Assembly (NCBI GenBank): GCA_964594835.1 | Contig: CAZQNA010000005.1 | Coordinates: 21,319 to 85,318, forward strand | Source of the DNA: an uncultured Nitrososphaerota archaeon | Lineage (GTDB): Archaea; Korarchaeota; Korarchaeia; Korarchaeales; Korarchaeaceae | Direction of reading: 5' to 3' | Length of the DNA: 64,000 nucleotides | Part shown: one piece after another, positions 23,630 to 34,832 of the stretch | Layout of the letters: every line of letters begins with the position of its first letter | How positions within the stretch are numbered: the first letter of the stretch is position 1 | Made by a program: the position numbers and the translations under genes | Notes under the pieces: generated by a model | Database searches by the model: none | What the model saw: the letters and a program-made list of their open reading frames with translations, nothing else | What the model was told of the DNA's origin: nothing

Positions 23630-24847
23630 ATGCCCGCTCGGGTTGCGCTTGTGGGGGCGGGGGTGACGTCGAGGGTCGTGGCGCTCTCTCTCGCGAGGGA
23701 CGACCTCGCCCCCTGGGTGGGGGAGCTGCTGATAGCGGACCTGAATGAGGACGCCGCCAGGATGGTGGCCGAGCGGGCTCAGGCCCTGACTGCCTCGAAG
23801 TCAGTGTTTTGGGCGAGGATCGACGCCAGGGACGTGGATCAGGCCGTCGGATTGATCAGGGGGTACGACGTCCTGATCAACGGCGCGATCTTCAAGGTGA
23901 TCCCCCACCTCACCAGGGCCGCCCTTGAGGCGGGAGTGAACTACGTTGACTTCGGCTCAGACAGGGAGACCCTCCAGTGGCAGCTCTCCCTGGGAGAGGA
24001 CTTCAGGCGCGCCGGCGCCGCGGCCCTGCCAGGGATGGGGGGCTCTCCGGGCCTGATAAACGTCCTGGCCAGGTTGGCGGTCGATCAACTGGAGGAGGTA
24101 CGGGAGATACGCATGAGAGAGGGGTGGACAGACAGAGTGGACTACGAAGGCCTCGGTATCCCCCTCCCCGTGCCCTACTCCCTCGAGACCATCCTCGACG
24201 AGTTCGTCTACGGGGGGGAGGTCTGGACGCCCGAGGGGGTGAGGCCCACCCCGCCGCTCGGGGGCCGCGAGGTCTTCGAGTTCCCCCAGCCCGTGGGGAG
24301 GCAGCCCTGCTACTACGTCGACCACCCCGAGACCTGGAGCCTAGGGGAGACTTTCAGAGACCGTGGGCTCAGGCTGGTCGACTACAAGCTCTCCTTCCCC
24401 GACGACCTCCTGGAGAAGTACCGCCTCCTCGTGGGGCTCGGATTCGCCTCGGAGGACCCATTGGACCTCGAGGGGTGCAGGAGGTCGCCCCTGGAGATTC
24501 TGAAGCGCCTGGTCGCCAGGACGATGGAGGGCAAGTCGTGGGCGCCAGACGACGTGGACGTGATGGTCGTGGTCGCCGAGGGGACGAGGTCCGGGGGAAC
24601 TCCCTCGTCGGCCGTCGTCACGGCGGAGGCCAGATCTTGGAGGGACCCGCCCGCGTCTTCGCACGGCGTGATGGTGGCCGCCCCAGCGGTTACCGCAGCC
24701 AGGATGCTGTTCGAGGGGGAGATCTCGCCGGGAGTCCACCTCCCGGAGAGGGTCCTGGACCCCGAGCCGTTCCTGCGGGAGGTGGCGAGGTTCGGCGTGT
24801 CTATCGGGCTGGAGGTGACGGTCGGCCGGGCCTCGCCGTCGGGATGA
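23630..24847 (+). CDS. Saccharopine dehydrogenase-family oxidoreductase
   Basis: Rossmann 'VALVGAG', 'AALEAGVNYVD', 'GMGGSPGLINV', 'YSLETILDE', 'DHPET', 'PGVHLPE'. Confidence 0.85.
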   Translation: MPARVALVGAGVTSRVVALSLARDDLAPWVGELLIADLNEDAARMVAERAQALTASKSVFWARIDARDVDQAVGLIRGYDVLINGAIFKVIPHLTRAALEAGVNYVDFGSDRETLQWQLSLGEDFRRAGAAALPGMGGSPGLINVLARLAVDQLEEVREIRMREGWTDRVDYEGLGIPLPVPYSLETILDEFVYGGEVWTPEGVRPTPPLGGREVFEFPQPVGRQPCYYVDHPETWSLGETFRDRGLRLVDYKLSFPDDLLEKYRLLVGLGFASEDPLDLEGCRRSPLEILKRLVARTMEGKSWAPDDVDVMVVVAEGTRSGGTPSSAVVTAEARSWRDPPASSHGVMVAAPAVTAARMLFEGEISPGVHLPERVLDPEPFLREVARFGVSIGLEVTVGRASPSG

Positions 24848-24905
24848 GGGGGAGGTCGTCCCGGACCGAAAAATCATTTTACCTTTGAGGGCTGGAGAGG
24901 GCCCC

Positions 24906-25643
24906 GTGCCCACGGAGAGGCTGTACTACCGGGATCAGTACTTGAAGGAGTTCACCGCGAGGGTGACCTCGGTCGAGGAGCTTCCCGAGGGAAGGCTCGG
25001 CGTGGTCCTGGACAGGACGGCCTTCTACCCGGAGGGGGGAGGCCAGCTGGCCGACACGGGTGTCTTGGAGGGCCCCTCCGGGAGGCTAAGGGTGGTCTGG
25101 GCCGAGGACCGGGGAGGGGAGGTACTCCACATCGGGGAGCCCGATGGCTCAATGGCCCCCGGCGACGAGGTCCGCGGCGCCATCGACTGGGAGAGGAGGC
25201 ACGCCATAATGAGGACTCACACGGCTGCCCACGTGCTGATGCACGCCGTGGACAGGCTGTTCGGACGAACGGAGCTGGCCGGAAGTGGCCTCAGCGTTGG
25301 AACGGGCCGCCTGGACTTCTCGGTGAGGATAACCAGGGATCAGCTGCCCTCCATAGAGGAGGAGGCCAACAGGATCGTGGAGGGGGACTATGAGGTCAGG
25401 GCGGTCGTGCTCCCGAGGGAGGAGGCGGAGTCTCTGCTCGCAAAGTACGGGGCGAGCCTCGGACCGGCCCAGGAGGGTATGGAGGAGGTCAGGGTCGTGG
25501 AGATCGTTGGGGTCGGGGCCGACCCCTGTGGGGGGACCCACGTGGCCCGGACGGGGGAGATAGGAGGGATCAAGATCCTGAAGAGGAAGAGCAAGGGGAA
25601 GGGTGTCGTGAGGCTGGAGTACGCAGTGTCCGGCTTCTATTGA
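24906..25643 (+). CDS. alaX: Alanyl-tRNA editing protein AlaX(M)
   Basis: 'LYYRDQYLKEF', 'FYPEGGGQLAD.G', HTAAH, 'PCGGTHV..TGEIG'. Confidence 0.93.
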   Translation: MPTERLYYRDQYLKEFTARVTSVEELPEGRLGVVLDRTAFYPEGGGQLADTGVLEGPSGRLRVVWAEDRGGEVLHIGEPDGSMAPGDEVRGAIDWERRHAIMRTHTAAHVLMHAVDRLFGRTELAGSGLSVGTGRLDFSVRITRDQLPSIEEEANRIVEGDYEVRAVVLPREEAESLLAKYGASLGPAQEGMEEVRVVEIVGVGADPCGGTHVARTGEIGGIKILKRKSKGKGVVRLEYAVSGFY

Positions 25644-25662
25644 AGCTCGAGGTGTTCTCCCG

Positions 25663-26496
25663 GTGGTCTCGGTCAGGGGGGTCGCGCCGGTCCTCGCCGT
25701 CCTGGCGCTCTCGCTCAGCGCGGCGCCGGCCTGGGGAGAGCCGTCTGGCTGCAGGGTCACGCTCTACGAGGACGGGTGGGCCCTGGTTACCGTGACCTGG
25801 AACTCGGAGGGGCTGGTGAGCGCGGTCCCCCTGCTCCCCGGCGCCAGGTCGATCCTCGTCACCGACGAGGGCGGCGGGCTGCCCGAGTACAACGTCACCG
25901 ACGGGACGCTCATCGTCTTGGAGTCTCCGGGCTCGATCAACGTGACCTACGAGACGCAGGGGATCACATCCAAGGAGGGAGACGTCTGGACGGCGAACCT
26001 CTCGGTTGAGCTCGGGACCTGCGAGGTGATCATGCCCAGGGGATCGATACTGGTCGGGATGTCGGAGCTGCCCGCCGCAGTCACTTCGGTGGACAACAGG
26101 ACGGTGGTGTTCATGGAGACTCCCTGCTGGGTCTCCTACGTCATGGCGACGAGGTCGCGGGGCCCGCAGGCGGGGAGGGGCTCGAGCCTCTGGCCCGCGG
26201 CGGCAGCCGGGCTGGCCCTCGCCGCGGCGATCCTGGCGCTCTCGCTCAGGACTCGCCGGAGGGAGACCAGAGAGAGGCCCCCGCTCTCGTACGACGACAT
26301 TGCGCTGCTCAGGAAGCTCGATCAGATGGGGGGAGAGGCCTACCTCTCTGAGCTCAGGGCGGCCCTGGAGATGCCGAAGACCACCGTGTGGAGGAGGGCC
26401 AGGAGGCTGAGCGAGGGCGGCCTCGTGGAGATGGTGAAGACCTCGAGGGGGAGCCTCCTCAGGATCACCGAGGAGGGCAGGAGGGTGATCTCCTGA
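25663..26496 (+). CDS. Membrane-anchored protein: signal peptide, extracellular domain, TM helix, cytoplasmic winged-helix
   Basis: Signal peptide ..APAWG; TM 'WPAAAAGLALAAAILAL'; wHTH 'GGEAYLSELRAALEMPKTTVWRRARRLSEGGLVEM'. Confidence 0.8.
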   Translation: MVSVRGVAPVLAVLALSLSAAPAWGEPSGCRVTLYEDGWALVTVTWNSEGLVSAVPLLPGARSILVTDEGGGLPEYNVTDGTLIVLESPGSINVTYETQGITSKEGDVWTANLSVELGTCEVIMPRGSILVGMSELPAAVTSVDNRTVVFMETPCWVSYVMATRSRGPQAGRGSSLWPAAAAGLALAAAILALSLRTRRRETRERPPLSYDDIALLRKLDQMGGEAYLSELRAALEMPKTTVWRRARRLSEGGLVEMVKTSRGSLLRITEEGRRVIS

Positions 26497-28853
26497 CGGC
26501 GGGCGTCAGGCTCGCGAGGGTCAGGCTGAGGAACTTCAAGTCGTTTCGGTCCGCCACCATAGAGTTCCCTTCCGACCTGACCGCGATAACCGGGCCCAAC
26601 GGGTCCGGCAAGTCGAACGTCATGGAGGCCGTCATGTTCGCCATGGGGGCCAGGGGGAGCTGGCTCAGGTCGCAGGGGCTCAGGGGGCTGATCAGGAAGG
26701 GGGCGTCGAGCTGCTCCGTGGAGCTGACCCTCAGACACGAGGGCGGGGCGCTCAGGCTGGAGAGGAGGATAACTCGATCCGGCGGGACGTACAGGCTCAA
26801 CGGCAGGGTGGCCTCGGCCAACGAGGTCAGGGACGCGCTTGCGGAGCTCGGCCTGAGGGCGGACGGACACAACTTCGTCAGCCAGGGGGAGGTCACGGCG
26901 GTGATAGAGGCCACCCCGAGGGAGAGGGCCGCGCTGATACTCGAGATAAGCGGGGTCGAGGAGTTTGAGAGGAGGAGAGAGGAGACCCTGAGGGAGCTCG
27001 AGAGGGTCGAAGAGCGCATCAAGGTGCTGAGGGCGCTTCAGAGAGACAGGCTGGAGAGGCTGGAGTTCCTGAAGAGGAGGGCCGAGGCGTACCATCAGAG
27101 GAGGGAGCTGGAGGAGAGGCTGGCCTCCCTGGAGAAGGCCGTCATTCTCAGGAGACTCGAGTCGGCCGAGAGGGCGCTGAGTGAGCTTCAGCCCCCAGAG
27201 GCACCTCCCATATCGGAGGACGAGATAGAGGAGCTGAGGAGGGAGGTCAGCAGGGCCGAGGCGGAGCTAAGAAGGCTGGAGGAGTCGGAGGATCTGAGGA
27301 GGGCCAGGGAGGCGGCGAACATCAAGGCCCGCCTGTCCACCCTCCGAGAGAGGCTGAGGTCGCTCGAGTCTGAGATAGAGGGTGTGAGGTCCCTCCTCTC
27401 TACCATGGGCGCCTCCCCCCCGCCGAGGTTCGTGACGGAGCACCCGGACTACGTGGGGATCGTCGCGGAGCTGGTCCGACCCCTGGAGGGGTACGAGATG
27501 GCCTTCAGGGCGGTCGCCGGGGCGAGGGTCGGAGACGTCGTGGTAAGGACCCTGGAGTCCGGGATAGAGATCGTGAAGTCCCTCAGGAACTCTCGCCTGA
27601 ACAGGAGGATCAGAGTACTCCCCCTAGACGTCCTCAGGCCCCCGAGGCGGGTGGACCCCCCGGAGTACTCGATCGGCCTCCTCAGAGACTACGTCTCCGC
27701 CGAGCCCGGCATGGAGGGCCTCGTCGGGGCGATCGTGGGGAACGCCGTCCTCGTCGAGGACCTGGACGCGGTCCCCAAGGCCGACGTGGGGAGGTACCGG
27801 TTCGTCAGCCTGCGGGGTGAGATAATCGAGAGGGATGGCAGCCTCCTCTCCTCCCCCCCGTCTCCGTCCCAGGAGAGGAGGCTCAGGAGGAGGCTCGAGG
27901 GGCTCCTGCAGGAGAGGGACGGTGTGAGGGGGAGGATTGAGGAGCTGGAGGCCAGGGCGCGGGATCTTCCGCCGCCAGAGCGCGCGCAGGAGGTGGAGGA
28001 GGCGCTGAGGGAGGTGAGGACCAGGATAGACGAGCTCAGGAGGGAGCTAGAGGGGGCGATGAGCTCGAGGCTCGCCTACGAGCGGAGGATGCGCGCGGCC
28101 GCCGAGGAGAGGGGGAGGCTCACGCAGAGGATTGAGGAGCTTAGGGAGAGGCTCAGAGAGCTTGAGGGAGTGGAGCCCGCCCCGTCCGACGACCCAGAGT
28201 CGGAGTTCGCCGCGGCCTCGGCGAGGCTCAGGGCCATCCCGCTGGTCGGCCCCGACGTGCTGGAGGAGCTTGAGAGGGAGGAGGCGAAGGCTCGAGACCT
28301 GGAGCAGACGCTGGCCGACCTCGAGGATGCCAGAGCCTCCATCGAGAGGGCGCTGGAGGAGATAGCCAGGGAGAGGGAGAGGGTGCTGAGGGAGACCGTC
28401 GAGAGGGTGTCGAGGGCCTTCAACGAGGCCGTCGGGGAGATGTTCGGGGGGCACGGGGAGGTCTGGCTGTCTGGAGAGTGGCCGAGGCTCGAGCTGGAGG
28501 TCAGGGTGAACATCCCTGACAAGGGCGAGGTCCCGATGGAGGCCCTCTCTGGTGGAGAGAAGTCGCTGGCCGCCCTGGCGCTGATATACGCCCTCCAGAG
28601 CGTCAGGCCGAGCCCCCTCTACTTCTTCGACGAGGCCGACATGATGCTCGACGGCAGGAACTGCAAGAGGTACGCGGCCCTGCTGAGGAGGATGGTGAGC
28701 AGGGGATCCCAGGTGATCATAATCTCCCTCAAGAAGGACACCCTGGAGGAGGCGGACGCCATACTGGGCGTGAGAATGGTTGACGGTGAGTCGAGGGTCG
28801 TGGGCGTGAGGCTCGATGAGTTCGATCGCGTCCGAGATAGTGCGAAGGGTTGA
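26493..28853 (+). CDS. smc: SMC chromosome segregation ATPase, unusually short (~786 aa)
   Basis: 'NFKSF', Walker A GPNGSGKSN, 'VSQGEV', coiled coils, hinge (~27405-27860), 'LSGGEKS', 'FFDEADMMLD'; start inferred at CTG 26493. Confidence 0.9.
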   Translation: MTAGVRLARVRLRNFKSFRSATIEFPSDLTAITGPNGSGKSNVMEAVMFAMGARGSWLRSQGLRGLIRKGASSCSVELTLRHEGGALRLERRITRSGGTYRLNGRVASANEVRDALAELGLRADGHNFVSQGEVTAVIEATPRERAALILEISGVEEFERRREETLRELERVEERIKVLRALQRDRLERLEFLKRRAEAYHQRRELEERLASLEKAVILRRLESAERALSELQPPEAPPISEDEIEELRREVSRAEAELRRLEESEDLRRAREAANIKARLSTLRERLRSLESEIEGVRSLLSTMGASPPPRFVTEHPDYVGIVAELVRPLEGYEMAFRAVAGARVGDVVVRTLESGIEIVKSLRNSRLNRRIRVLPLDVLRPPRRVDPPEYSIGLLRDYVSAEPGMEGLVGAIVGNAVLVEDLDAVPKADVGRYRFVSLRGEIIERDGSLLSSPPSPSQERRLRRRLEGLLQERDGVRGRIEELEARARDLPPPERAQEVEEALREVRTRIDELRRELEGAMSSRLAYERRMRAAAEERGRLTQRIEELRERLRELEGVEPAPSDDPESEFAAASARLRAIPLVGPDVLEELEREEAKARDLEQTLADLEDARASIERALEEIARERERVLRETVERVSRAFNEAVGEMFGGHGEVWLSGEWPRLELEVRVNIPDKGEVPMEALSGGEKSLAALALIYALQSVRPSPLYFFDEADMMLDGRNCKRYAALLRRMVSRGSQVIIISLKKDTLEEADAILGVRMVDGESRVVGVRLDEFDRVRDSAKG

Positions 28854-29394
28854 GCGCGTCCTGACGGAGTTCCGCCGGAGCAGGGACATGTCTTGGGCCG
28901 CCAGGACCCTCCACTCCCTCGCGGTGGAGCTCAGGAGACTTGCAGACTCCCTGGTGAGGATAGGGGAGGTCGAGGACCGCCCCGCGCCTCCCAGGTCTAG
29001 GCAGGCCAGGCGGGGGCCCCCAGCCCCGCTGCCCGAGCCCCTCCTCGGGAGGGTGCCGGCGCGTCGGCCGAGGCCGTCAGACCTCTCCTCCGCCCTGGAG
29101 TGGGCGAGGAACCTCGGTAGGAGGGCGGATGACGGCCTCTCCAGGATAATCTCGGCGGCGGTCAGCCTGGCCGAGCACCTCGACAGGGTTAGGGCGAGGC
29201 TGAGGGAGATCCTCGCCGGCTCGGGTGTTAGAGAGGTGCCGTTCAGGGAGCTCGCCAGGGACAGGTCCGAGGCCGCGGAGGCGATGGTCTCCCTCCTCCA
29301 CATGGAGGCCGAGGGGGAGGTGGAGCTGGAGCAGGAGACACTTTTTGGGGAGATCCTGATCCGGGTGAGGCGGGTTGACCGACCAGGACCCTGA
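28816..29394 (+). CDS. scpA: Kleisin ScpA
   Basis: Lies between smc and scpB; C-terminal winged-helix 'VSLLHMEAEGEVELEQETLFGEILI'. Confidence 0.85.
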   Translation: MSSIASEIVRRVERVLTEFRRSRDMSWAARTLHSLAVELRRLADSLVRIGEVEDRPAPPRSRQARRGPPAPLPEPLLGRVPARRPRPSDLSSALEWARNLGRRADDGLSRIISAAVSLAEHLDRVRARLREILAGSGVREVPFRELARDRSEAAEAMVSLLHMEAEGEVELEQETLFGEILIRVRRVDRPGP

Positions 29395-29839
29395 GCTGGT
29401 GATTGAGGCCGCCCTCTTCATGGCCGGGAGGCCGCTGTCGGACGAGGAGCTGGCGAGGCTGGCCGGCGTCTCGACTGAGGAGGTCCGCGAACTGATATCC
29501 AGGATCGAGAGGTTCCACCGGGGGAGGTCCATCTCGATAGAGAGGAGGCCCAGCGGCTGGTACATGACCGTCAGGCCTGAGTACCAAGAGGTCGTCGGGA
29601 GGCTGGCCCCGAGGCCGGAGCTCACCAGGGGGGAGCTCAGGACCCTGGCGGTCCTCTTGGAGAGGGGTGGGATGTTCCTGACAGAGCTCGCCCGGATCAG
29701 GGGTTCCTCAGCCTACAGGCACGTGAAGAGGCTGAGGAGGGAGGGGCTGGTCGGCGTGAGGAAGAAGGACGGTAAGACTTACGCCTGGGCGACCAGGCTG
29801 GCCAGGAACTTCTTCGACGTCCCGCCCAGTCATCGATAA
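29375..29839 (+). CDS. scpB: SMC-Scp complex subunit ScpB
   Basis: 'IEAALFMAGRPLS', 'ELT..ELRTLA', 'RIRGSSAYRHVKRL...GLV'. Confidence 0.92.
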   Translation: MTDQDPELVIEAALFMAGRPLSDEELARLAGVSTEEVRELISRIERFHRGRSISIERRPSGWYMTVRPEYQEVVGRLAPRPELTRGELRTLAVLLERGGMFLTELARIRGSSAYRHVKRLRREGLVGVRKKDGKTYAWATRLARNFFDVPPSHR

Positions 29840-29875
29840 AAATAGGCGGCGGTAAAGCTCCTGAGGTGCTCGCCC

Positions 29876-31765
29876 CTGTCGAGTGGCGAGTCGAGCAGGG
29901 AATACGTGGTCAAGGAGCTTCAGAGGAGGGGGATCTCGGGCGAGGTCGCCCAGAACATATTTGAGAACCTTCAGATGGCTGGCATCCTCGACGCCATGGG
30001 GCTACTCCTCCTCATGACCGCGAGGGGGGACGGCATCCTCCAGAGGCTCGAGGACCTGGGCAGCCCGCAGGTCGAGGAGCTGAAGCCCAGGCTCGCGGGC
30101 ATCGTTGAGAAGGTCGACGAGCTGGTAAGGGAGATGGCCTCGGACCCGGACGTCGCCTCGAGGCCCGGCCCCATCTCGCGGGCCCTGGGGAGGGCCTTCG
30201 GCAAGGGAGGGGTCGCCAGGAGGTACTCCCCCAGGATAGAGTCCCTGATGGACTCGCTAGAGGCCGTGCTCTGGGCGATAGAGGAGGAGGCCAGGAAGGT
30301 CCTCTCGAGGAAGCTGGAGAATCTTGAGTTAGACGCAAGGGAGCTCCTCTCGGCCGCAGAGAAGGGGGGGTTCTCGGAGATAGCCTCGAGGCTCAGAGAG
30401 AGCCTCGAGAAGGTGCAGGAACTCCTGAACTCTCCGCTGAAATCCTCTTCCGACCTGGAGGCAGCGCTGATAGAGACCCAGAGGGTCGACTCGGAGGTCA
30501 AGGAGATCAGGGAGGTTCTGGCCAAGTCCAAGGAGACGAGGGCGGCCCTGGCAGCCGAGCTCTCCAGGATCAGGGGTCAGATCGAGTCTATCCACGTCAA
30601 GGCGTCCAGGATAAGGGAGACGGGCATAGACCCCATCTACATAGAGGAGTCCCTGAGGTGGGTCGAGGCCAGGATAGCCAGGATAGAGAACAGGTGCCCT
30701 CCGGAGGACCTGGAGTGCATGGAGACCGCGCTGGTAGACCTCAGGACCCTCGAGCAGAGGGCGCTGAAGCCCCTCCTGGAGGAGATGGAGAAGCTCGAGA
30801 GGCTCAGCTCCCAGTTCGAGAACACGTTCGCCCTGATCCCGGACGCCGAGAGGGCCGCGGAGATGCTGGACAGGGAGTTCAACACGAACGCGTTCACCGC
30901 CCTGATAGGGTCCCTGGCCGTGAGGCTCTCCTCCATCAGGGCGGGCACCGAGGTTAGAGACTCCGAGGACATAGAGAAGATCGCGGAGGAGATTTCCAGG
31001 CTCAGAGAGACCCTGGAGCTCTTGATATTCATAAAGAGGGCTGAGGAGAGGGCAGGACCCATCTCCCAGCAGCTGAGGCTCGTCACGGACGGTGACGCCG
31101 TGCTCGCGACCATCCGGGCCGCCCTCCAGGTCCCCACGATGTCGCCCGAGGAGAAGGCCCGCCAGGCCCTCGCCCCGCTGAAGGAGGTTCGGAGGAAGCT
31201 CTCCGAGTACCTCGAGGCCACCGCCGATGCCGAGAGGTTCTACCCCTACTGGAAGGAGTACGTCCTCACCCACCTCTCCGAGGCCGGGACAGCGAGGATG
31301 GAGGATCTCGTGAAGATCCCGGAGAGGTGGAGGCTCTGGGTGGCCAAGAGGCTGGAGGAGGAGGGCCTTGTTAGGCTCGAGGGTGGGGTCATCAGGCCCA
31401 CCGGGCGGAGGCCGGAGCCCGCCCAGCCTCCAGAGGTCCCGGAGAGGGCGCCACCACCCCCCAAGCCCCCCGTTGAGGAGGAGCCCGTCGCCGGGCCCCC
31501 CAAGCCCGCCCCGCCGCCACCCCAGCCTGCCGCACCTCCCGCCCAGAGGGCGGAGAGACCGGCCCTACAGCCGGCCCCTCGGCCCGTTGAGGTGGCCGAG
31601 ATCGCCAAGGGTCTGTCCGACCTGCTCCACCTCCTCGAGGAGAGGGTGGGCGGGCCCATCAACTCGGGACCCGCGGCCGAGCTGATGAGGCTGATCTCGA
31701 GCGGCGAGGCGGACCCGGAGGAGCTATCCGATCTGCTCAGGAGGGCGGCCAGCAGGATACCATGA
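29876..31765 (+). CDS. Large coiled-coil protein with winged-helix-like segment and Pro-rich tail
   Basis: Heptad-rich E/L/R/K helices; 'WKEYVLTHLSEAG...IPERWRLWVAKRLEEEGLVRLEGG'; Pro-rich at ~31410-31590; start at CTG 29876 or GTG 29906. Confidence 0.8.
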   Translation: MSSGESSREYVVKELQRRGISGEVAQNIFENLQMAGILDAMGLLLLMTARGDGILQRLEDLGSPQVEELKPRLAGIVEKVDELVREMASDPDVASRPGPISRALGRAFGKGGVARRYSPRIESLMDSLEAVLWAIEEEARKVLSRKLENLELDARELLSAAEKGGFSEIASRLRESLEKVQELLNSPLKSSSDLEAALIETQRVDSEVKEIREVLAKSKETRAALAAELSRIRGQIESIHVKASRIRETGIDPIYIEESLRWVEARIARIENRCPPEDLECMETALVDLRTLEQRALKPLLEEMEKLERLSSQFENTFALIPDAERAAEMLDREFNTNAFTALIGSLAVRLSSIRAGTEVRDSEDIEKIAEEISRLRETLELLIFIKRAEERAGPISQQLRLVTDGDAVLATIRAALQVPTMSPEEKARQALAPLKEVRRKLSEYLEATADAERFYPYWKEYVLTHLSEAGTARMEDLVKIPERWRLWVAKRLEEEGLVRLEGGVIRPTGRRPEPAQPPEVPERAPPPPKPPVEEEPVAGPPKPAPPPPQPAAPPAQRAERPALQPAPRPVEVAEIAKGLSDLLHLLEERVGGPINSGPAAELMRLISSGEADPEELSDLLRRAASRIP

Positions 31766-31825
31766 GCGAGTGCCGGGGATCGTTAATATTATTCCCCCCG
31801 CCGGCCGAGCGGAAGAGGTGGCCCA

Positions 31826-33022
31826 ATGCGCTGGTTCGGGATAGGACTCGGCGGTGCGGGAGGGGCCATAATCGACAGGACCTACGACACGTTCGCTGGG
31901 GAGGCCCCCTCGGCGATGGTGGACGCCGTCGTCTTCAACACCTCCGTCTCCGACCAGGCGAAGCTCCAGGTCCTGAGGGACAGGTTCTACCTCTTTGGGA
32001 GGTTCGGGGGCGCGGGGGTGGGCGCGCGGTGGAAGGACTCCATGATGGCCATGCTGGAGCCTGAGAGCAGGGAGCTGTTCGTCCGCGCGGTCACCGAGAG
32101 GGGGATCACGGACTCGACCGCCGTGGTGCTCTCCGCGGCCCTGGGCGGGGGCACCGGGAGCGGGTCCATGCCGGTCGTGGCCGACTACGTCAGGGAGATC
32201 CTGGGCAGCGAGGGCCCCCCGACTCAGCCGGTGGTGTCCGTGGGTGTGCTCCCCTTCAAGTTCCCCAAGGAGAGCATGAGGTTCGCCTACAACTCCGTGA
32301 TAGCGATGGCGAACATGCTGGGGAGGGTCGACTCACTGATACTCCTGGACAACGAGGTGGCCAGGGAGATCGTGCTGAGGGACGAGCCTGGACTGAGCGA
32401 CGAGCAGGTGCTCGACAGGATAAACTCGCTCGTGGGTCGGTGCATGATCGCCATGTCCGCCGCCGACGTGGAGCCCCTCAGGGGGGGCTACAAGACCACG
32501 TTCGACTCCCAGGACCTCAAGTCGATACTCAGGTTCTTCGAGGCCTCCCTCACGGTCCCGTGCTACATGAAGGCCAGGGTAGAGTCGGTGGGGGGTAGCC
32601 TGGAGTTCCTGACGGAGGCCGCTCTCAGGGAGGGCTGCCTGGCGGAGGTCAGGCCGAAGACGGCCCTCAAGGCGGCCCTGGTCGTCAGGGGGCCGGAGGA
32701 GTACCTCAACGTCGACGCGGTTTTCGAGGCCAAGAGGCTCCTGAGCGAGAAGATAGCCGGCGTGGACGTTAGAGAGGGGCTGGCGGTCGCCCCAGGGTCT
32801 AGACACTTTGAGATAGCCATCCTCCTTGTGGAGCCCGAGCTGGTCAGGCTCCCGTCCCTCCTCAAGGAGGCGAGGCTGTACTACGAGGTCCACGAGGAGG
32901 AACTCACCAAGATGGAGGACACGCCTAGGGAGGAGTTCGAGTCCTACGTTCAGGCCGTGGAGAGGCACCTACTGACCGCGGCGGAGGCGAGGGAGGAGGC
33001 GGGCGCCGCCCCCTCGGCTTAA
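31826..33022 (+). CDS. Tubulin/FtsZ-superfamily GTPase (non-canonical, CetZ/TubZ-like)
   Basis: T1 'GIGLGGAGG', 'FNTSVSD', 'GAGVGA', signature GGGTGSG, 'LLDNE', T7-like 'FDSQD'. Confidence 0.9.
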   Translation: MRWFGIGLGGAGGAIIDRTYDTFAGEAPSAMVDAVVFNTSVSDQAKLQVLRDRFYLFGRFGGAGVGARWKDSMMAMLEPESRELFVRAVTERGITDSTAVVLSAALGGGTGSGSMPVVADYVREILGSEGPPTQPVVSVGVLPFKFPKESMRFAYNSVIAMANMLGRVDSLILLDNEVAREIVLRDEPGLSDEQVLDRINSLVGRCMIAMSAADVEPLRGGYKTTFDSQDLKSILRFFEASLTVPCYMKARVESVGGSLEFLTEAALREGCLAEVRPKTALKAALVVRGPEEYLNVDAVFEAKRLLSEKIAGVDVREGLAVAPGSRHFEIAILLVEPELVRLPSLLKEARLYYEVHEEELTKMEDTPREEFESYVQAVERHLLTAAEAREEAGAAPSA

Positions 33023-33063
33023 CAATTTTTAACGGAATGCGCGGCCGGCCGCGCGGGATAACC

Positions 33064-34515
33064 GTGGGGCGCCTGGACCCCTTCTTCTACCCGGATTCGG
33101 TGGCCGTGATAGGCGCATCTCGCGAGCCGGGCTCGGTGGGACACGAGCTCCTCAGGGTGATGGTGGAGAACCAGAAGAGCGGCCTCTACAGGGGGAGACT
33201 CTACGCCGTGAACCCGAAGGCGAAGGAGCCCATCCTCGGAGTGCCGACCTACCCGAGCGTCTCTGACCTGCCGGAGCCGGTCGACCTGGGCGTGATAGTG
33301 GTCCCCGCCAGGGTAGTGCCGGCCGTTGTGGACGAGTGCGGGAGGAAGGGGATCAAACACGTGATAGTGATATCCGGGGGGTTCGCCGAGGTCGGCGGAG
33401 AGGGAGTCGAGCTCCAGGAGAAGCTCGTGGAGGTCGCCAGGAGGCACGGGATCCGGATAGTCGGCCCCAACTGCGTCGGGGTCGTGTGCCCCGAGACCGG
33501 CGTGGACACGATGTTCCTCCCCTACAAGAAGGAGCTGGGAGGCAGGGGTCTGCTCTCCCTCCCGAGGCCCGGCCCAGGGAACATATCCCTTCTCACTCAG
33601 TCCGGCGCGTTTGGCGTGGCCTGCGTGGACTACATGGCGGGCGAGGGCCTGGGGCTGGCGAAGTTCGTCAGCTACGGCAACAAGGCGGACATAGACGAGG
33701 TGGAGCTCATGGAGTACCTGGCAGACGACCCCAAGACCAGGGTGATCGTGATATACGCCGAGTCGATCGAGGAGGGGAGGAGGTTCATCGAGGCCGCCAG
33801 GAGGACCGTCCCGAAGAAGCCCGTCGTGGTCCTCAAGGCCGGCAGAACTCGGGCGGGCGCCAGGGCGGCCAGCTCCCACACGGCCGCGCTGGCCGGGGCC
33901 GACGAGGTGTACTCGGCCGCCTTCAGGCAGGCCGGCGTCGTGAGGGTCTACGAGGTCGAGGAGCTCTTCGACGTGACGAAGGCCCTCTCCATGCAGCCCC
34001 CTGCCAGGGGGCCCAGGATAGCGGTCCTCACGGATGGAGGAGGGGCCGGGGTCATGACGGCCGACGAGCTCGAGAGCAAGGGGGCCGTGGTGGTTCAGCT
34101 CTCAGAGGAGACGCAGTCCAGGCTCAGGGAGCTGATGGACAGGGGCGTGATCCCCCCCATCTCCGCCGTCGCCAACCCTGTGGACGTCACGGGCAGCGCG
34201 ACAGACGACGCCTTCGTCGAGTCCCTCAGGATCCTCCTGGACGCACCCGAGGTCGATGGGGTGATAGTGCTCCCCCTCCACCACGTGCCGGGGCTGACCT
34301 CTGACCTCCCGGAGAGGATCGCCGCCGAGGCCAGGGGCAGGGGGGACAAGCCGGTCCTGGTGGTGGACATCGGGCAGGGGGAGTACGGGATCGCCTACAG
34401 GGAGAGGTTCGACGAGCTGGGCATCCCGGCCTACCCCACCCCCGAGAGGGCCGCGAGGGCGATGGTGGGCCTCATCAAGTACGGAGAGGCCCTGAAGAGG
34501 ATGGGCGCCCTCTGA
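33064..34515 (+). CDS. acdA: Acetate--CoA ligase (ADP-forming) alpha subunit
   Basis: 'LDPFFYPDSVAVIGAS', 'GPNCVG', 'QSGAFG', 'SYGNKAD', phospho-His 'AASSHTAALAG', 'NPVDVTG'. Confidence 0.92.
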   Translation: MGRLDPFFYPDSVAVIGASREPGSVGHELLRVMVENQKSGLYRGRLYAVNPKAKEPILGVPTYPSVSDLPEPVDLGVIVVPARVVPAVVDECGRKGIKHVIVISGGFAEVGGEGVELQEKLVEVARRHGIRIVGPNCVGVVCPETGVDTMFLPYKKELGGRGLLSLPRPGPGNISLLTQSGAFGVACVDYMAGEGLGLAKFVSYGNKADIDEVELMEYLADDPKTRVIVIYAESIEEGRRFIEAARRTVPKKPVVVLKAGRTRAGARAASSHTAALAGADEVYSAAFRQAGVVRVYEVEELFDVTKALSMQPPARGPRIAVLTDGGGAGVMTADELESKGAVVVQLSEETQSRLRELMDRGVIPPISAVANPVDVTGSATDDAFVESLRILLDAPEVDGVIVLPLHHVPGLTSDLPERIAAEARGRGDKPVLVVDIGQGEYGIAYRERFDELGIPAYPTPERAARAMVGLIKYGEALKRMGAL

Positions 34516-34523
34516 GAGCCCTC

Positions 34524-34832
34524 TTACTCCTCTCCTTCACCTCTGTCTGGCTCTCTCGCCTCCTCGAGCCTGACGGGCCGCACTTGCTCCTCTCTCCTCC
34601 CCGGGCGGAGCGCGAAGTACAGGCCGGCCGCAAGCTTGACTAGGCCAGCCAGGGTGCCCACTATCAGGCCGACTATGATGGACAGGGCGATCAGGGCGAG
34701 AATGAGGGCGGCTAGAAGGGGAAGGTACCTCAGCAGGGTCAGAAAGATCAGCACGGATAGGAGCAGCACGAGGACCGCGATCCCCGATATGATGAGGGCG
34801 TCTCTGGCCTCCACCCCCGAGACACCTTCCAT
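34524..34832 (-). CDS. Hypothetical membrane protein
   Basis: Long hydrophobic hairpin and charged tail; co-oriented with neighbours. Confidence 0.7.
   Translation of the reverse strand: MEGVSGVEARDALIISGIAVLVLLLSVLIFLTLLRYLPLLAALILALIALSIIVGLIVGTLAGLVKLAAGLYFALRPGRREEQVRPVRLEEAREPDRGEGEE

What the first reader, a model, noticed from the sequence alone, without database searches (positions are those of the whole stretch)
25663..33022. Candidate condensin-plus-tubulin chromosome segregation module
Seen: six co-oriented genes, namely membrane-tethered wHTH protein, smc, scpA, scpB, a coiled-coil/wHTH/Pro-rich protein and a tubulin/FtsZ-family GTPase; the first four overlap at their ends. Known: SMC-ScpAB extrudes DNA loops, and type III partition systems use a TubZ filament with a wHTH adaptor (TubR) and sometimes a coiled-coil partner. 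Inference: the locus could couple condensin-organised chromosomes to a GTPase filament and to the membrane, a spindle-like machine that to my knowledge has not been characterised experimentally in archaea. TATA-like motifs before the last two genes (~29837, ~31783) mean co-transcription is not guaranteed.
Basis: partly seen in the sequence, partly recalled or inferred. Interest (0 to 1): 0.88.

Follow-up and report, generated by a model that had tools for sequence, protein, structure and literature searches.

The report
Condensin operon beside CetZ-like cytoskeleton pair
An ordinary archaeal chromosome-compaction operon happens to sit next to a separate, previously undescribed two-gene unit, a tubulin-like filament protein and a long helical partner predicted to bind it, and the link between the two units is probably an accident of gene order.

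Summary
All six genes exist as described, in a Korarchaeota genome (named hits). Genes 2-4 are a phylum-typical smc-scpA-scpB operon with a short-armed SMC. The GTPase belongs to the tubulin superfamily. Its closest relatives by sequence, fold and tree are CetZ proteins, the archaeal cell-shape family, not TubZ or FtsZ.

The conserved unit is the last two genes. The 619-aa helical/winged-helix/Pro-rich protein ("cc") lies next to the CetZ-like gene in 11 of 15 genomes that have the GTPase, across 4 of 4 genera. Condensin is adjacent in only 5 of the 15, in 2 genera. In genus g2 the pair persists although ScpB was found in 0 of 5 genomes.

A complex prediction supports cc binding the GTPase: score 0.61, best control 0.00. 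The interface joins the cc family's most conserved residues (W449, P472, W475 near-invariant in 33 sequences) to the M-loop/H9 region of the GTPase.

TATA-like elements precede cc and the GTPase gene. No centromere-like repeats were found.

Verdict: two independent modules. The spindle idea is not supported, but the cc/CetZ-like pair is a moderately novel cytoskeletal unit.

The parts
25663..26496 (+). Membrane-anchored winged-helix protein, 277 aa. Hydrophobic segments at aa 1-25 and 174-197, cytoplasmic wHTH at aa ~205-275. Context gene, not part of either conserved module.
   Evidence: Adjacent to smc only in genus g1. The g4 orthologue is on another contig, and a paralogue lies in the own genome at C6:25102-25962.
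26388..28853 (+). smc, short-armed SMC. The ORF is 821 aa; the conserved part starts at ~26520. Walker A 26592-26615, hinge ~27444-27770, signature motif 28545-28559.
   Evidence: Pfam SMC_N 1.3e-52 and SMC_hinge 2e-18. TIGR02169 E 2.3e-122 but 409.8 bits, below its 729.4 cut-off. Motifs. Sole SMC hinge in the genome. Open frames of 758-839 aa are usual in related genomes.
28816..29394 (+). scpA (kleisin), 192 aa
   Evidence: No Pfam hit. Profile A2 against the PDB: ScpA C-terminal domain 4i99_C 1.4e-9, 5xns_C 6e-9, Rad21 C-terminus 1.2e-4. Lies between smc and scpB in all seven smc-scpA-scpB loci examined.
29375..29839 (+). scpB, 154 aa
   Evidence: PF04079 E 2e-24, 86.4 bits against a cut-off of 27.4.
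29835..29845 (+). AT-rich TATA-like element in the 66-nt gap between scpB and cc. Candidate separate promoter for cc.
   Evidence: one of 29 AT-rich clusters in 64 kb. Promoter function is inferred, not shown.
29906..31765 (+). cc, 619 aa. Elongated all-helical body (aa 1-440), winged helix (aa ~444-499; nt 31235-31402), Pro-rich disordered linker (aa 502-558; nt 31409-31579), small C-terminal helical domain (aa 561-616; nt 31586-31753). Predicted GTPase-binding patch at aa 434-452 and 469-475 (nt 31205-31330).
   Evidence: AF2 model, pLDDT 85.1, pTM 0.57. wHTH matches with Z 8.5-9.5, rmsd 1.1-2.1 over 56-65 residues. No Pfam or NCBIfam family. Family of 33 representatives among 1.84 billion. 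W449, P472 and W475 near-invariant. Interface.
31782..31794 (+). AT-rich TATA-like element, 32-44 nt upstream of the GTPase start codon
   Evidence: Promoter function is inferred.
31826..33022 (+). CetZ-like tubulin-superfamily GTPase, 398 aa. GGGTGSG signature at aa 107-113 (nt 32144-32164), T7-loop FDSQD at aa 226-230 (nt 32501-32515), predicted cc-binding surface at aa 250-269 (nt 32573-32632, M-loop/H9 region), long C-terminal helix at aa 368-394.
   Evidence: PF00091 57.8 bits. Best PDB sequence hits are CetZ1, CetZ and CetZ2. AF2 model pLDDT 92.6. Foldseek top 4 are all CetZ; 4b46 E 1.1e-24, TMt 0.90. Tree, alignment, interface.

Best explanation
The stretch holds two independent functional units that are neighbours only in this lineage.

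Unit A is an ordinary SMC-ScpA-ScpB condensin operon of the short-armed type that is usual in this phylum. It is probably transcribed together with the upstream alaX-like gene and the membrane-wHTH gene.

Unit B is a two-gene cytoskeletal cassette specific to this Korarchaeota family. It encodes a CetZ-related tubulin-superfamily GTPase with intact GTP-binding and T7 catalytic motifs, and a 619-aa rod-like helical protein (cc).

Inferred mechanism:
- The GTPase polymerises with GTP, like CetZ and FtsZ.
- cc docks its winged-helix patch (W449, P472 and W475 among its contact residues) onto the M-loop/H9 face of the GTPase C-terminal domain. This is the side of a protofilament, not its growing ends.
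- The long helical body, the Pro-rich tether and the C-terminal domain of cc then link or bundle filaments, or attach them to another structure, most likely the cell envelope as for CetZ.

Shown here: gene identities, conservation of the pair, and a model-level prediction of binding. Inferred: polymerisation, side-binding and the cellular role (shape or envelope rather than DNA segregation).
For: Gene identities.

GTPase family:
- The own genome has two other, much stronger FtsZ-type genes (E 1.4e-47 and 3.4e-44, against 4.1e-16 for this one). On the tree they sit on the FtsZ side.
- The window GTPase clade (6 rows, SH-aLRT 99) groups with Pfam CetZ_C-positive proteins (SH-aLRT 94).
- The best PDB sequence hits are CetZ1 2.6e-14, CetZ 3.5e-13 and CetZ2 4.8e-9, against FtsZ 7.9e-7.
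- The Foldseek top 4 are all CetZ chains (1.1e-24 to 1.1e-21); FtsZ starts at 3.9e-19 and TubZ is 1.1e-18.
- GGGTGSG and the two T7 aspartates are conserved in g1, g4 and g5.

Synteny:
- Orthologues of the GTPase occur in 15 of 41 genomes searched: g1 5/5, g4 1/1, g5 4/4, g2 5/5, g3 0/10, families f2-f5 0/7.
- cc is adjacent in 11 of those 15. In g2 the two genes overlap by 4 bp; in g5 the gap is 46 nt.
- Condensin is adjacent in 5 of the 15.
- The outer neighbours differ: NTP-transferase and IF-2B in g5, aminotransferase and acs in g2.
- smc-scpA-scpB is a tight operon elsewhere, with other downstream genes.
- ScpB was found in 0 of 5 g2 genomes.

Binding: complex prediction scored 0.61, 0.61 and 0.63, with the best of 3 controls at 0.00. 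The runs agree in at least 43% of contacts and the partner pLDDT is at least 74. The mark was reached by 58 of 80 solved complexes and 2 of 110 mismatched pairs, and these counts hold only roughly because my own alignments were used. The interface uses cc residues 434-452 and 469-475, which include the invariant or near-invariant A442, Y446, W449, P472 and W475, and GTPase residues 250-269. This GTPase segment aligns with the place where a CetZ_C-positive protein carries a long insertion, which I take to be the M-loop. The M-loop is reported to be essential for CetZ1 assembly and envelope association (bioRxiv 10.1101/2024.04.08.588506, passages read).

Separate TATA-like elements precede cc and the GTPase gene, and none lies within alaX through scpB.
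Against: - In g1 and g4 the cassette directly follows scpB on the same strand with a 66-nt gap, so read-through transcription and a lineage-specific functional link cannot be excluded.
- cc has a true winged-helix fold, which could bind DNA.
- W449, P472 and W475 are also near-invariant in cc paralogues that sit beside Ras/Arf-like GTPase genes, and in genus g3, which lacks the CetZ-like orthologue. The patch may therefore serve another or a more general partner, or be structural.
- cc and the GTPase gene are unlinked in G014 and G017.
- The complex score is a model's own confidence, not a measurement.
- Trees were quick searches on 42 and 13 rows without named reference sequences.
- CetZ_C scores 16.4 bits for the window protein, below the 21.6 cut-off.
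- No expression data exist.
Confidence: 0.65

Rival explanations
1. One reading: in genera g1 and g4 the cassette has been recruited to condensin. cc would bridge SMC-ScpAB-organised DNA to CetZ-like filaments, and through the membrane wHTH protein to the envelope, as a segregation machine.
For: Six co-oriented genes with small gaps. The same order smc-scpA-scpB-cc-GTPase-acs occurs in 4 g1 genomes and in g4. cc has a winged helix and a long tether. cc is predicted to bind the GTPase.
Against: - The adjacency is limited to 2 of 4 genera, 5 of 15 genomes.
- The pair is retained where ScpB was not found, 0 of 5 g2 genomes.
- TATA-like elements separate the units.
- The membrane wHTH gene is absent from the g4 locus and belongs to a multi-copy family.
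- The nearest GTPase family is CetZ.
- The conserved face of the cc winged helix is predicted to be occupied by the GTPase.
- No interaction with condensin subunits was tested.
Confidence: 0.1
2. A TubZRC-like (type III) DNA partition system that is independent of condensin. cc would act as a giant TubR/TubY-type adaptor whose winged helix binds a centromere, and the GTPase filament would move DNA.
For: A tubulin-family GTPase next to a wHTH protein. The predicted contact between them involves the wHTH region. TubZ is within reach by fold (4ei7_B E 1.1e-18, TMq 0.65). What TubR, TubY and tubC are is recalled, not from a call.
Against: - The GTPase is closer to CetZ than to TubZ by sequence and by fold.
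- No iteron-like array was found. The repeat families in 24800-34600 are 69-88% identical scattered coding matches, and the intergenic gaps are only 60-66 nt.
- The neighbours are chromosomal housekeeping genes (alaX-like, acs), not plasmid or phage genes.
- cc is 619 aa, not a small dimeric repressor.
Confidence: 0.1
3. cc and the GTPase are neighbours without physical contact. cc would be a structural or regulatory helical protein that works with other partners, for example Ras-like GTPases as its paralogues may, and the predicted interface would be a false positive.
For: - cc paralogues pair with Ras/Arf-like GTPase genes in g3 (overlapping genes) and g2 (divergent genes).
- The W/P/W patch is kept in genomes without the CetZ-like orthologue.
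- The two genes are unlinked in G014 and G017.
- 2 of 110 mismatched pairs reached the mark in the calibration.
Against: - The score of 0.61 compares with 0.00 for all three controls, including one in which the GTPase was replaced.
- The two genes are adjacent in 4 of 4 genera, with a 4-bp overlap in g2.
- Both genes sit on long branches in g2, which is consistent with co-evolution but does not prove it.
Confidence: 0.12

Closest known systems
CetZ tubulin-like proteins of Euryarchaeota (CetZ1 and CetZ2 of Haloferax volcanii, PDB 4b46 and 4b45; CetZ of Methanosaeta thermophila, 3zid)
   Same: Tubulin/FtsZ fold with GGGTGSG and T7 acidic residues. These are the best sequence and structure matches (TMt 0.90, rmsd 2.4-2.8 over 357-365 columns). 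The window protein groups with CetZ_C-positive proteins on the tree. It coexists with two FtsZ genes.
   Different: - Only 24% identity.
- Pfam CetZ_C is below its cut-off.
- It forms a separate long-stem clade confined to one Korarchaeota family in the genomes searched.
- It lacks the long M-loop insertion of the CetZ1 type and instead has a conserved short GGSLEFL segment.
- It comes with a dedicated neighbouring helical partner.
- The main text of the CetZ survey PMC9856176 has no occurrence of Korarchae, TACK or Thermoproteota. Its supplementary tables could not be seen.
TubZ-TubR-tubC (and TubY) type III plasmid/phage partition systems (description recalled, not from a call)
   Same: A tubulin-family GTPase gene beside a winged-helix protein gene. 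The wHTH region is predicted to contact the GTPase.
   Different: The GTPase is not of the TubZ family. There are no centromere repeats. The context is chromosomal housekeeping genes. The partner is a 619-aa rod, and contact is predicted on the globular C-terminal domain of the GTPase rather than on its C-terminal tail.
FtsZ-binding helical regulators such as EzrA (spectrin-like repeats; PDB 4uxv, 4uy3)
   Same: A long all-helical, three-helix-bundle-type body partnered with a tubulin-family protein. EzrA appears among the weak fold matches (Foldseek rank 28, E 0.46; VIA Z 9.4-9.9 but rmsd 11-20 A). One of the 33 family members has a weak Pfam EzrA hit (6.7e-4).
   Different: The matches are at the level expected for any helical protein. 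There is no transmembrane anchor. cc carries a winged helix, a Pro-rich tether and a C-terminal domain that EzrA is not known to have (recalled). Homology is not shown.
SMC-ScpAB condensin of bacteria and archaea (for example Pyrococcus SMC head with ScpA, PDB 4i99, 5xns)
   Same: Head, hinge, kleisin C-terminal winged helix, ScpB and the operon order are all present.
   Different: The arms are about half the usual length. The open frames are 758-839 aa here and in related genomes, against 1189-1212 aa in three distant archaea of the same search.

Membership tests
SMC-ScpAB condensin | SMC with ABC-type head (Walker A, signature, Walker B) and hinge | tested here: met
   SMC_N 178.9 bits and SMC_hinge 67.3 bits, both over their cut-offs. 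Motifs at ORF residues 69, 720 and 746. The NCBIfam equivalog TIGR02169 scores 409.8 bits, below its 729.4 cut-off, as expected for short arms.
SMC-ScpAB condensin | Kleisin ScpA with C-terminal winged helix that binds the SMC head | tested here: met
   Profile of 7 orthologues against the PDB: 4i99_C 1.4e-9, 5xns_C 6e-9, Rad21 and Scc1 C-termini 1.2e-4 to 0.012. The single sequence is not significant on its own (E 0.5), and there is no Pfam hit. The N-terminal domain was not tested.
SMC-ScpAB condensin | ScpB subunit | tested here: met
   PF04079 86.4 bits against a cut-off of 27.4. TIGR00281 scores 53.8 bits, below its 89.2 cut-off.
CetZ | Tubulin/FtsZ GTPase domain with GGGTGSG and T7 catalytic acidic residues | tested here: met
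   PF00091 57.8 bits. G107-G113 are invariant in 17 sequences. FDSQD at 226-230 aligns with the D..D of CetZ_C-positive proteins.
CetZ | CetZ-type C-terminal domain (Pfam PF21011 over its cut-off) | tested here: not met
   16.4 bits against a cut-off of 21.6 for the window protein. 2 of its 13 listed homologues carry a precomputed PF21011 hit.
CetZ | Fold closest to solved CetZ structures | tested here: met
   Foldseek ranks 1-4 are all CetZ chains (E 1.1e-24 to 1.1e-21; TMt 0.78-0.90). The best FtsZ is 3.9e-19.
CetZ | Placement inside the CetZ clade on a superfamily tree | tested here: inconclusive
   On the quick tree of 42 rows, the window clade joins the CetZ_C-positive rows (SH-aLRT 94), apart from the FtsZ side. 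It is a separate long-stem clade next to a long-branch row, and no named reference sequences were included.
CetZ | Role in cell shape or envelope-associated assemblies | not testable with these tools
   Needs cell biology.
TubZRC type III partition system | GTPase of the TubZ family | tested here: not met
   TubZ (4ei7_B) is Foldseek rank 7 at E 1.1e-18, against 1.1e-24 for CetZ1. No TubZ is among the 60 best of 146 PDB sequence hits shown.
TubZRC type III partition system | Adjacent centromere of repeated iterons | tested here: not met
   No near-exact repeat array in 24800-34600. The intergenic gaps are 60-66 nt.
TubZRC type III partition system | Small winged-helix DNA-binding adaptor (TubR) | tested here: inconclusive
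   cc has a winged-helix fold (Z 9.5, rmsd 1.1 over 57 residues, to a MarR-type regulator), but it is a 619-aa rod. DNA binding was not tested.
FtsZ (cell division) | Equivalog-level match to FtsZ | tested here: not met
   TIGR00065 scores 41.2 bits against a cut-off of 295.2. Two other genes in the genome match the tubulin domain far better and lie on the FtsZ side of the tree.

The most novel reading that the evidence does not exclude
In genera g1 and g4 the cc rod physically couples CetZ-like filaments to SMC-ScpAB-organised DNA. The winged-helix patch would hold the filament, and the Pro-rich tether and C-terminal domain would hold condensin or DNA. This would be a tubulin-family, spindle-like chromosome segregation device in an archaeon of the TACK group. 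The evidence does not exclude it, because no cc-condensin or cc-DNA interaction was tested and the genes are contiguous and co-oriented in 5 genomes.
Probability: 0.1. Interest if true: 0.85.

Novelty: new variant of a known kind. Interest (0 to 1): 0.5.

Why it matters
No dedicated binding partner of a CetZ-type protein turned up in my searches. That statement rests on the listings and the passages read, and the absence may only reflect the library. CetZ-like proteins outside Euryarchaeota are not discussed in the main text of the CetZ survey I read.

A family-wide gene pair offers a concrete, mutation-testable handle on how archaeal tubulin-like filaments are organised. It has a confident predicted interface that uses the partner's most conserved residues and the M-loop/H9 face of the GTPase. 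Paralogues of cc sit beside Ras/Arf-like small GTPase genes, which hints at a scaffold family that serves different GTPases.

The negative result matters too. Gene order alone would have suggested an archaeal spindle, and comparative synteny argues against it.

Tried and rejected
- **Foldseek on the cc model against the PDB.** No match at E <= 0.001; the best was 0.072, a designed protein.
- **VIA-align wide on the cc model.** It returned only generic three-helix bundles (Z up to 12, within the range stated as common for helical models) and the winged-helix matches. EzrA scored Z 9.4-9.9 with rmsd 11-20 A, which I do not take as homology.
- **Pfam on all 33 cc family members.** Only scattered coiled-coil noise; no family was hit by more than 4 members.
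- **ESM Atlas on cc.** The best score was 0.82, below the 0.9 lead level, to an unnamed archaeal cluster.
- **Word-indexed homologue search for cc.** It found only 7 close relatives, so I moved to the full HMMER search.
- **Repeat search for a centromere.** Nothing convincing.
- **Expression.** No RNA holder was listed among the 7 runs found. The 5 runs that hold the stretch or part of it are DNA and some may be the source sample. Read laying was therefore not used, and co-transcription remains untested.
- **FtsZl1 family (Makarova and Koonin 2010, PMC2875224, passages read).** Considered and rejected. The window protein keeps T6-H7-T7 and a CetZ-like C-terminal domain, and Tubulin_2 scores 22.8 bits, below its 27 cut-off.
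- **ArvA vesiculation GTPase (PMC10927574, passages read).** The paper reports homologues in 8 Korarchaeota. I did not test whether the Ras/Arf-like neighbours of cc paralogues are ArvA.
- **The orphan 464-aa ORF between cc and the GTPase gene in G007.** It was found in 1 of 25 genomes, so it is not part of the conserved unit.
- **Supplementary files.** None were requested. Table S1 of PMC9856176 may list Korarchaeota tubulin-superfamily proteins that I could not see.
Full report
**What is there.** The window is contig C5:21319-85318 of a 1.82-Mb, 97%-complete genome. The closest database proteins that carry a name are labelled Candidatus Korarchaeota archaeon. GC content is about 65%.

On the + strand between 24885 and 34515 lie these genes:
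- an AlaX-like editing-domain gene;
- a 277-aa protein with two hydrophobic segments and a C-terminal winged helix;
- smc, scpA and scpB;
- a 619-aa protein with no family ("cc");
- a 398-aa tubulin/FtsZ-family GTPase;
- an ADP-forming acyl-CoA synthetase-like gene.

ScpA gave no Pfam hit. A profile of seven orthologues matches the C-terminal winged helix of archaeal ScpA (4i99_C 1.4e-9, 5xns_C 6e-9) and of Rad21/Scc1. The SMC carries Walker A, signature and Walker B motifs and is the only hinge-bearing protein in the genome. Its annotated GTG start at 26388 gives a 109-nt overlap with the preceding gene. Similarity to other SMCs starts only at about residue 45, so the true start is uncertain.

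**The condensin part is ordinary for this group.** smc-scpA-scpB occurs as a tight, overlapping operon in three further genomes that I examined, from genus g3, genus g5 and a second family. The gene after scpB differs in each: dihydroorotate dehydrogenase, a convergent gene, and a D-glutamate-cyclase-like gene. Short SMCs, with open frames of 758-839 aa, are the rule in these relatives. Three distant archaea in the same search have 1189-1212 aa.

**The GTPase is CetZ-like.**
- The genome has two other tubulin-family genes with far stronger domain scores. On a 42-row tree they fall with the FtsZ side.
- The window protein forms a clade with its five sampled orthologues (SH-aLRT 99). That clade joins proteins I confirmed as Pfam CetZ_C-positive (SH-aLRT 94).
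- PDB sequence search ranks CetZ1, CetZ and CetZ2 first, at 2.6e-14 to 4.8e-9, with FtsZ from 7.9e-7.
- The AF2 model (pLDDT 92.6) has the CetZ chains as its top four Foldseek hits (4b46 E 1.1e-24, TMt 0.90). FtsZ starts at 3.9e-19 and TubZ is at 1.1e-18.
- The GGGTGSG signature and the two T7-loop aspartates (FDSQD, residues 226-230) are present, so a polymerising GTPase is expected. This is an inference.
- Membership in CetZ proper is not settled. Pfam CetZ_C is below its cut-off (16.4 against 21.6 bits), and the clade sits on its own long stem.
- The main text of the CetZ diversity survey (PMC9856176) does not mention Korarchaeota (passages and term counts only).

**What is conserved is the cc-GTPase pair, not the six-gene block.** Orthologues of the GTPase (E <= 7e-60) occur in 15 of 41 genomes searched: g1 5/5, g4 1/1, g5 4/4 and g2 5/5. 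They were not found in g3 (0/10) or in families f2-f5 (0/7).

I fetched 15 loci and mapped the window proteins onto them.
- **Condensin adjacency.** The full order smc-scpA-scpB-cc-GTPase-acs occurs in three other g1 genomes and in g4. With the window that makes 5 genomes. In G002, cc and smc share a contig that breaks before the GTPase gene.
- **g5.** Two genomes have NTP-transferase, cc, GTPase and IF-2B, with a 46-nt gap between cc and the GTPase gene. In these genomes smc lies on other contigs.
- **g2.** Four genomes have aminotransferase, cc, GTPase and acs. cc and the GTPase gene overlap by 4 bp, and there is no smc in more than 9 kb upstream in the two long loci.
- **Totals.** cc is adjacent to the GTPase gene in 11 of 15 genomes, in 4 of 4 genera. 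The exceptions are G002 (contig break), G014 and G017 (cc orthologue elsewhere), and G018 (truncated contig, no cc match).
- **g4.** One orphan 464-aa ORF sits between the two genes. It was found in 1 of 25 genomes.
- **Condensin in g2.** The ScpB family was found in 0 of 5 g2 genomes (71-93% complete), and an SMC hinge in 1 of 5. These genomes have a 608-613-aa SMC-like protein instead. The pair therefore persists without a detectable canonical condensin.
- **The membrane wHTH gene.** It is next to smc only in g1. Its g4 orthologue is on another contig, and the family has copies in 24 of 24 other genomes of family f1 and a second copy in the window's own genome.

**Transcription signals.** In this GC-rich window, AT-rich 10-mers are rare (29 clusters in 64 kb). 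They fall before alaX (24869-24881), between scpB and cc (29835-29845), inside cc (31025-31035), between cc and the GTPase gene (31782-31794), and after it (33019-33033). None lies between 24881 and 29835. This fits one transcription unit from alaX to scpB and separate promoters for cc and for the GTPase gene. It is inference only, because no RNA data exist.

**The cc protein.**
- No Pfam or NCBIfam family matches it.
- A profile of nine orthologues found only 33 representatives at E <= 1e-3 among 1.84 billion clusters. In the related genomes searched, matches are almost confined to family f1: 22 of 24 f1 genomes, and 1 weak hit elsewhere.
- The AF2 model from a 33-sequence alignment is confident (pLDDT 85.1, pTM 0.57). 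It shows long helices to residue ~440, a winged helix at ~444-499, a disordered linker at 502-558 that is 43% Pro, and three short helices at 561-616.
- VIA-align confirms the winged helix: MarR, IclR and Z-alpha type domains at Z 8.5-9.5, rmsd 1.1-2.1 over 56-65 residues. It gives only generic helical-bundle matches for the body. Foldseek found nothing at E <= 0.001.
- The most conserved residues flank and enter the winged helix. A442, Y446, W449, P472, W475 and R476 are invariant in nine orthologues. W449, P472 and W475 are at least 90% conserved in 33 sequences.

**Predicted binding.** The one complex job folded the GTPase (residues 1-380, alignment A4) with full-length cc (alignment A3).
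- Scores were 0.61, 0.61 and 0.63, with the best of three controls at 0.00.
- The runs agree in at least 43% of contacts, and the partner pLDDT is at least 74.
- The mark was reached by 58 of 80 solved complexes and 2 of 110 mismatched pairs in the tool's calibration. That calibration holds only roughly here because my own alignments were used.
- The model supports binding; it does not show it.

The confident contacts join cc 434-452 and 469-475 to GTPase 250-269 and 326. The cc side includes A442, W449, P472 and W475. On the GTPase side, this segment follows a strand of the C-terminal domain and includes a short helix (model). In alignment A4 it is where a CetZ_C-positive protein carries a long insertion. 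I read it as the M-loop/H9 region. In CetZ1 the M-loop is reported to be essential for assembly and envelope association (bioRxiv 10.1101/2024.04.08.588506, passages).

A partner bound there would sit on the side of a protofilament. It could bundle, space or anchor filaments without capping them. This last step is inference.

**Complications.**
- cc has paralogues. In genus g3, which lacks the CetZ-like orthologue, a cc-family gene overlaps a Ras/Arf-like small GTPase gene. It lies about 3 kb from a tandem cluster of five or six small tubulin-like paralogues.
- In g2, a second cc paralogue is divergent to a Ras-like GTPase gene.
- On a 13-row tree the Ras-linked paralogues fall together, but only weakly (SH-aLRT 79). 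The tubulin-linked ones fall on the other side.
- The W/P/W patch is kept in all of them. It may therefore be a general docking or structural feature rather than one specific to the CetZ-like protein.
- The g2 orthologues of the GTPase have lost both T7 aspartates.

**Against a partition system.** No iteron-like repeats were found in 24800-34600. The repeat families reported are 69-88% identical matches scattered through coding sequence. The gaps flanking cc are only 60-66 nt. The flanking genes are housekeeping genes.

**Verdict.** The interpretation as a condensin-plus-tubulin segregation machine is not supported by comparative synteny or by the family of the GTPase. Its sub-idea, that the helical/wHTH protein partners the tubulin-like GTPase, is supported by conservation and by a controlled complex prediction.

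The most likely picture, at about 0.65, is an ordinary condensin operon lying beside a lineage-specific CetZ-like cytoskeletal pair whose role is in cell shape or envelope organisation. A condensin-coupled role in g1 and g4 remains possible at about 0.1.

The condensin part is already known biology. The cc/CetZ-like pair is a new variant of a known kind of system. Interest is moderate (0.5).

Noticed in passing
window 26388-28853; related genomes: The SMC has arms about half the usual length. Open frames of 758-839 aa are the rule in the Korarchaeota relatives and in some other small-genome archaea of the sample, against 1189-1212 aa in three distant archaea. The NCBIfam SMC equivalogs therefore score below their cut-offs.
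   Followed up: partly
L040:4592-11173 (G013) and L041:7564-14201 (G019): Genus g3 lacks the CetZ-like orthologue. It has a tandem cluster of five or six small (302-360 aa) tubulin/FtsZ-like paralogues that form their own clade on the FtsZ side of the tree (SH-aLRT 98).
   Followed up: partly
L040:13463-15651 (-), L041:3176-5397 (+), L042:5467-8029: cc-family paralogues pair with Ras/Arf-like small GTPase genes. The genes overlap in g3 and are divergent in g2. The own genome has a homologue of that small GTPase on contig C3:102484-103047, away from cc. I did not test whether these are ArvA-type vesiculation GTPases (PMC10927574).
   Followed up: partly
L030-L033 (genus g2 orthologues of the GTPase): Both T7-loop aspartates are replaced (LSAQG or LSAQS instead of FDSQD), while the GTP-binding signature is kept. 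These copies may bind GTP but hydrolyse it poorly.
   Followed up: no
L025:10714-12108 (G007, genus g4): An orphan 464-aa helical ORF is inserted between cc and the GTPase gene. It has no Pfam family and was found in 1 of 25 genomes searched.
   Followed up: yes
genus g2 genomes G005, G009, G012, G015, G018: The ScpB family was found in 0 of 5 genomes and an SMC hinge in 1 of 5 (completeness 71-93%). Instead there is a 608-613-aa SMC-like protein that matches only the head regions. This may be loss or replacement of canonical condensin.
   Followed up: partly
window 25663-26496; G000:C6:25102-25962: The membrane-anchored winged-helix protein belongs to a multi-copy family present in 24 of 24 other genomes of family f1 and in a few more distant archaea. 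There is a second copy (42% identity) in the own genome.
   Followed up: partly
window 31025-31035: An AT-rich 11-mer lies inside the cc coding region, one of only 29 such clusters in 64 kb. It may be an internal promoter or a chance occurrence.
   Followed up: no
window 24869-24881: An AT-rich element ends 4 nt before the annotated TTG start of the alaX-like gene. Either the transcript is leaderless or the true start is further downstream.
   Followed up: no
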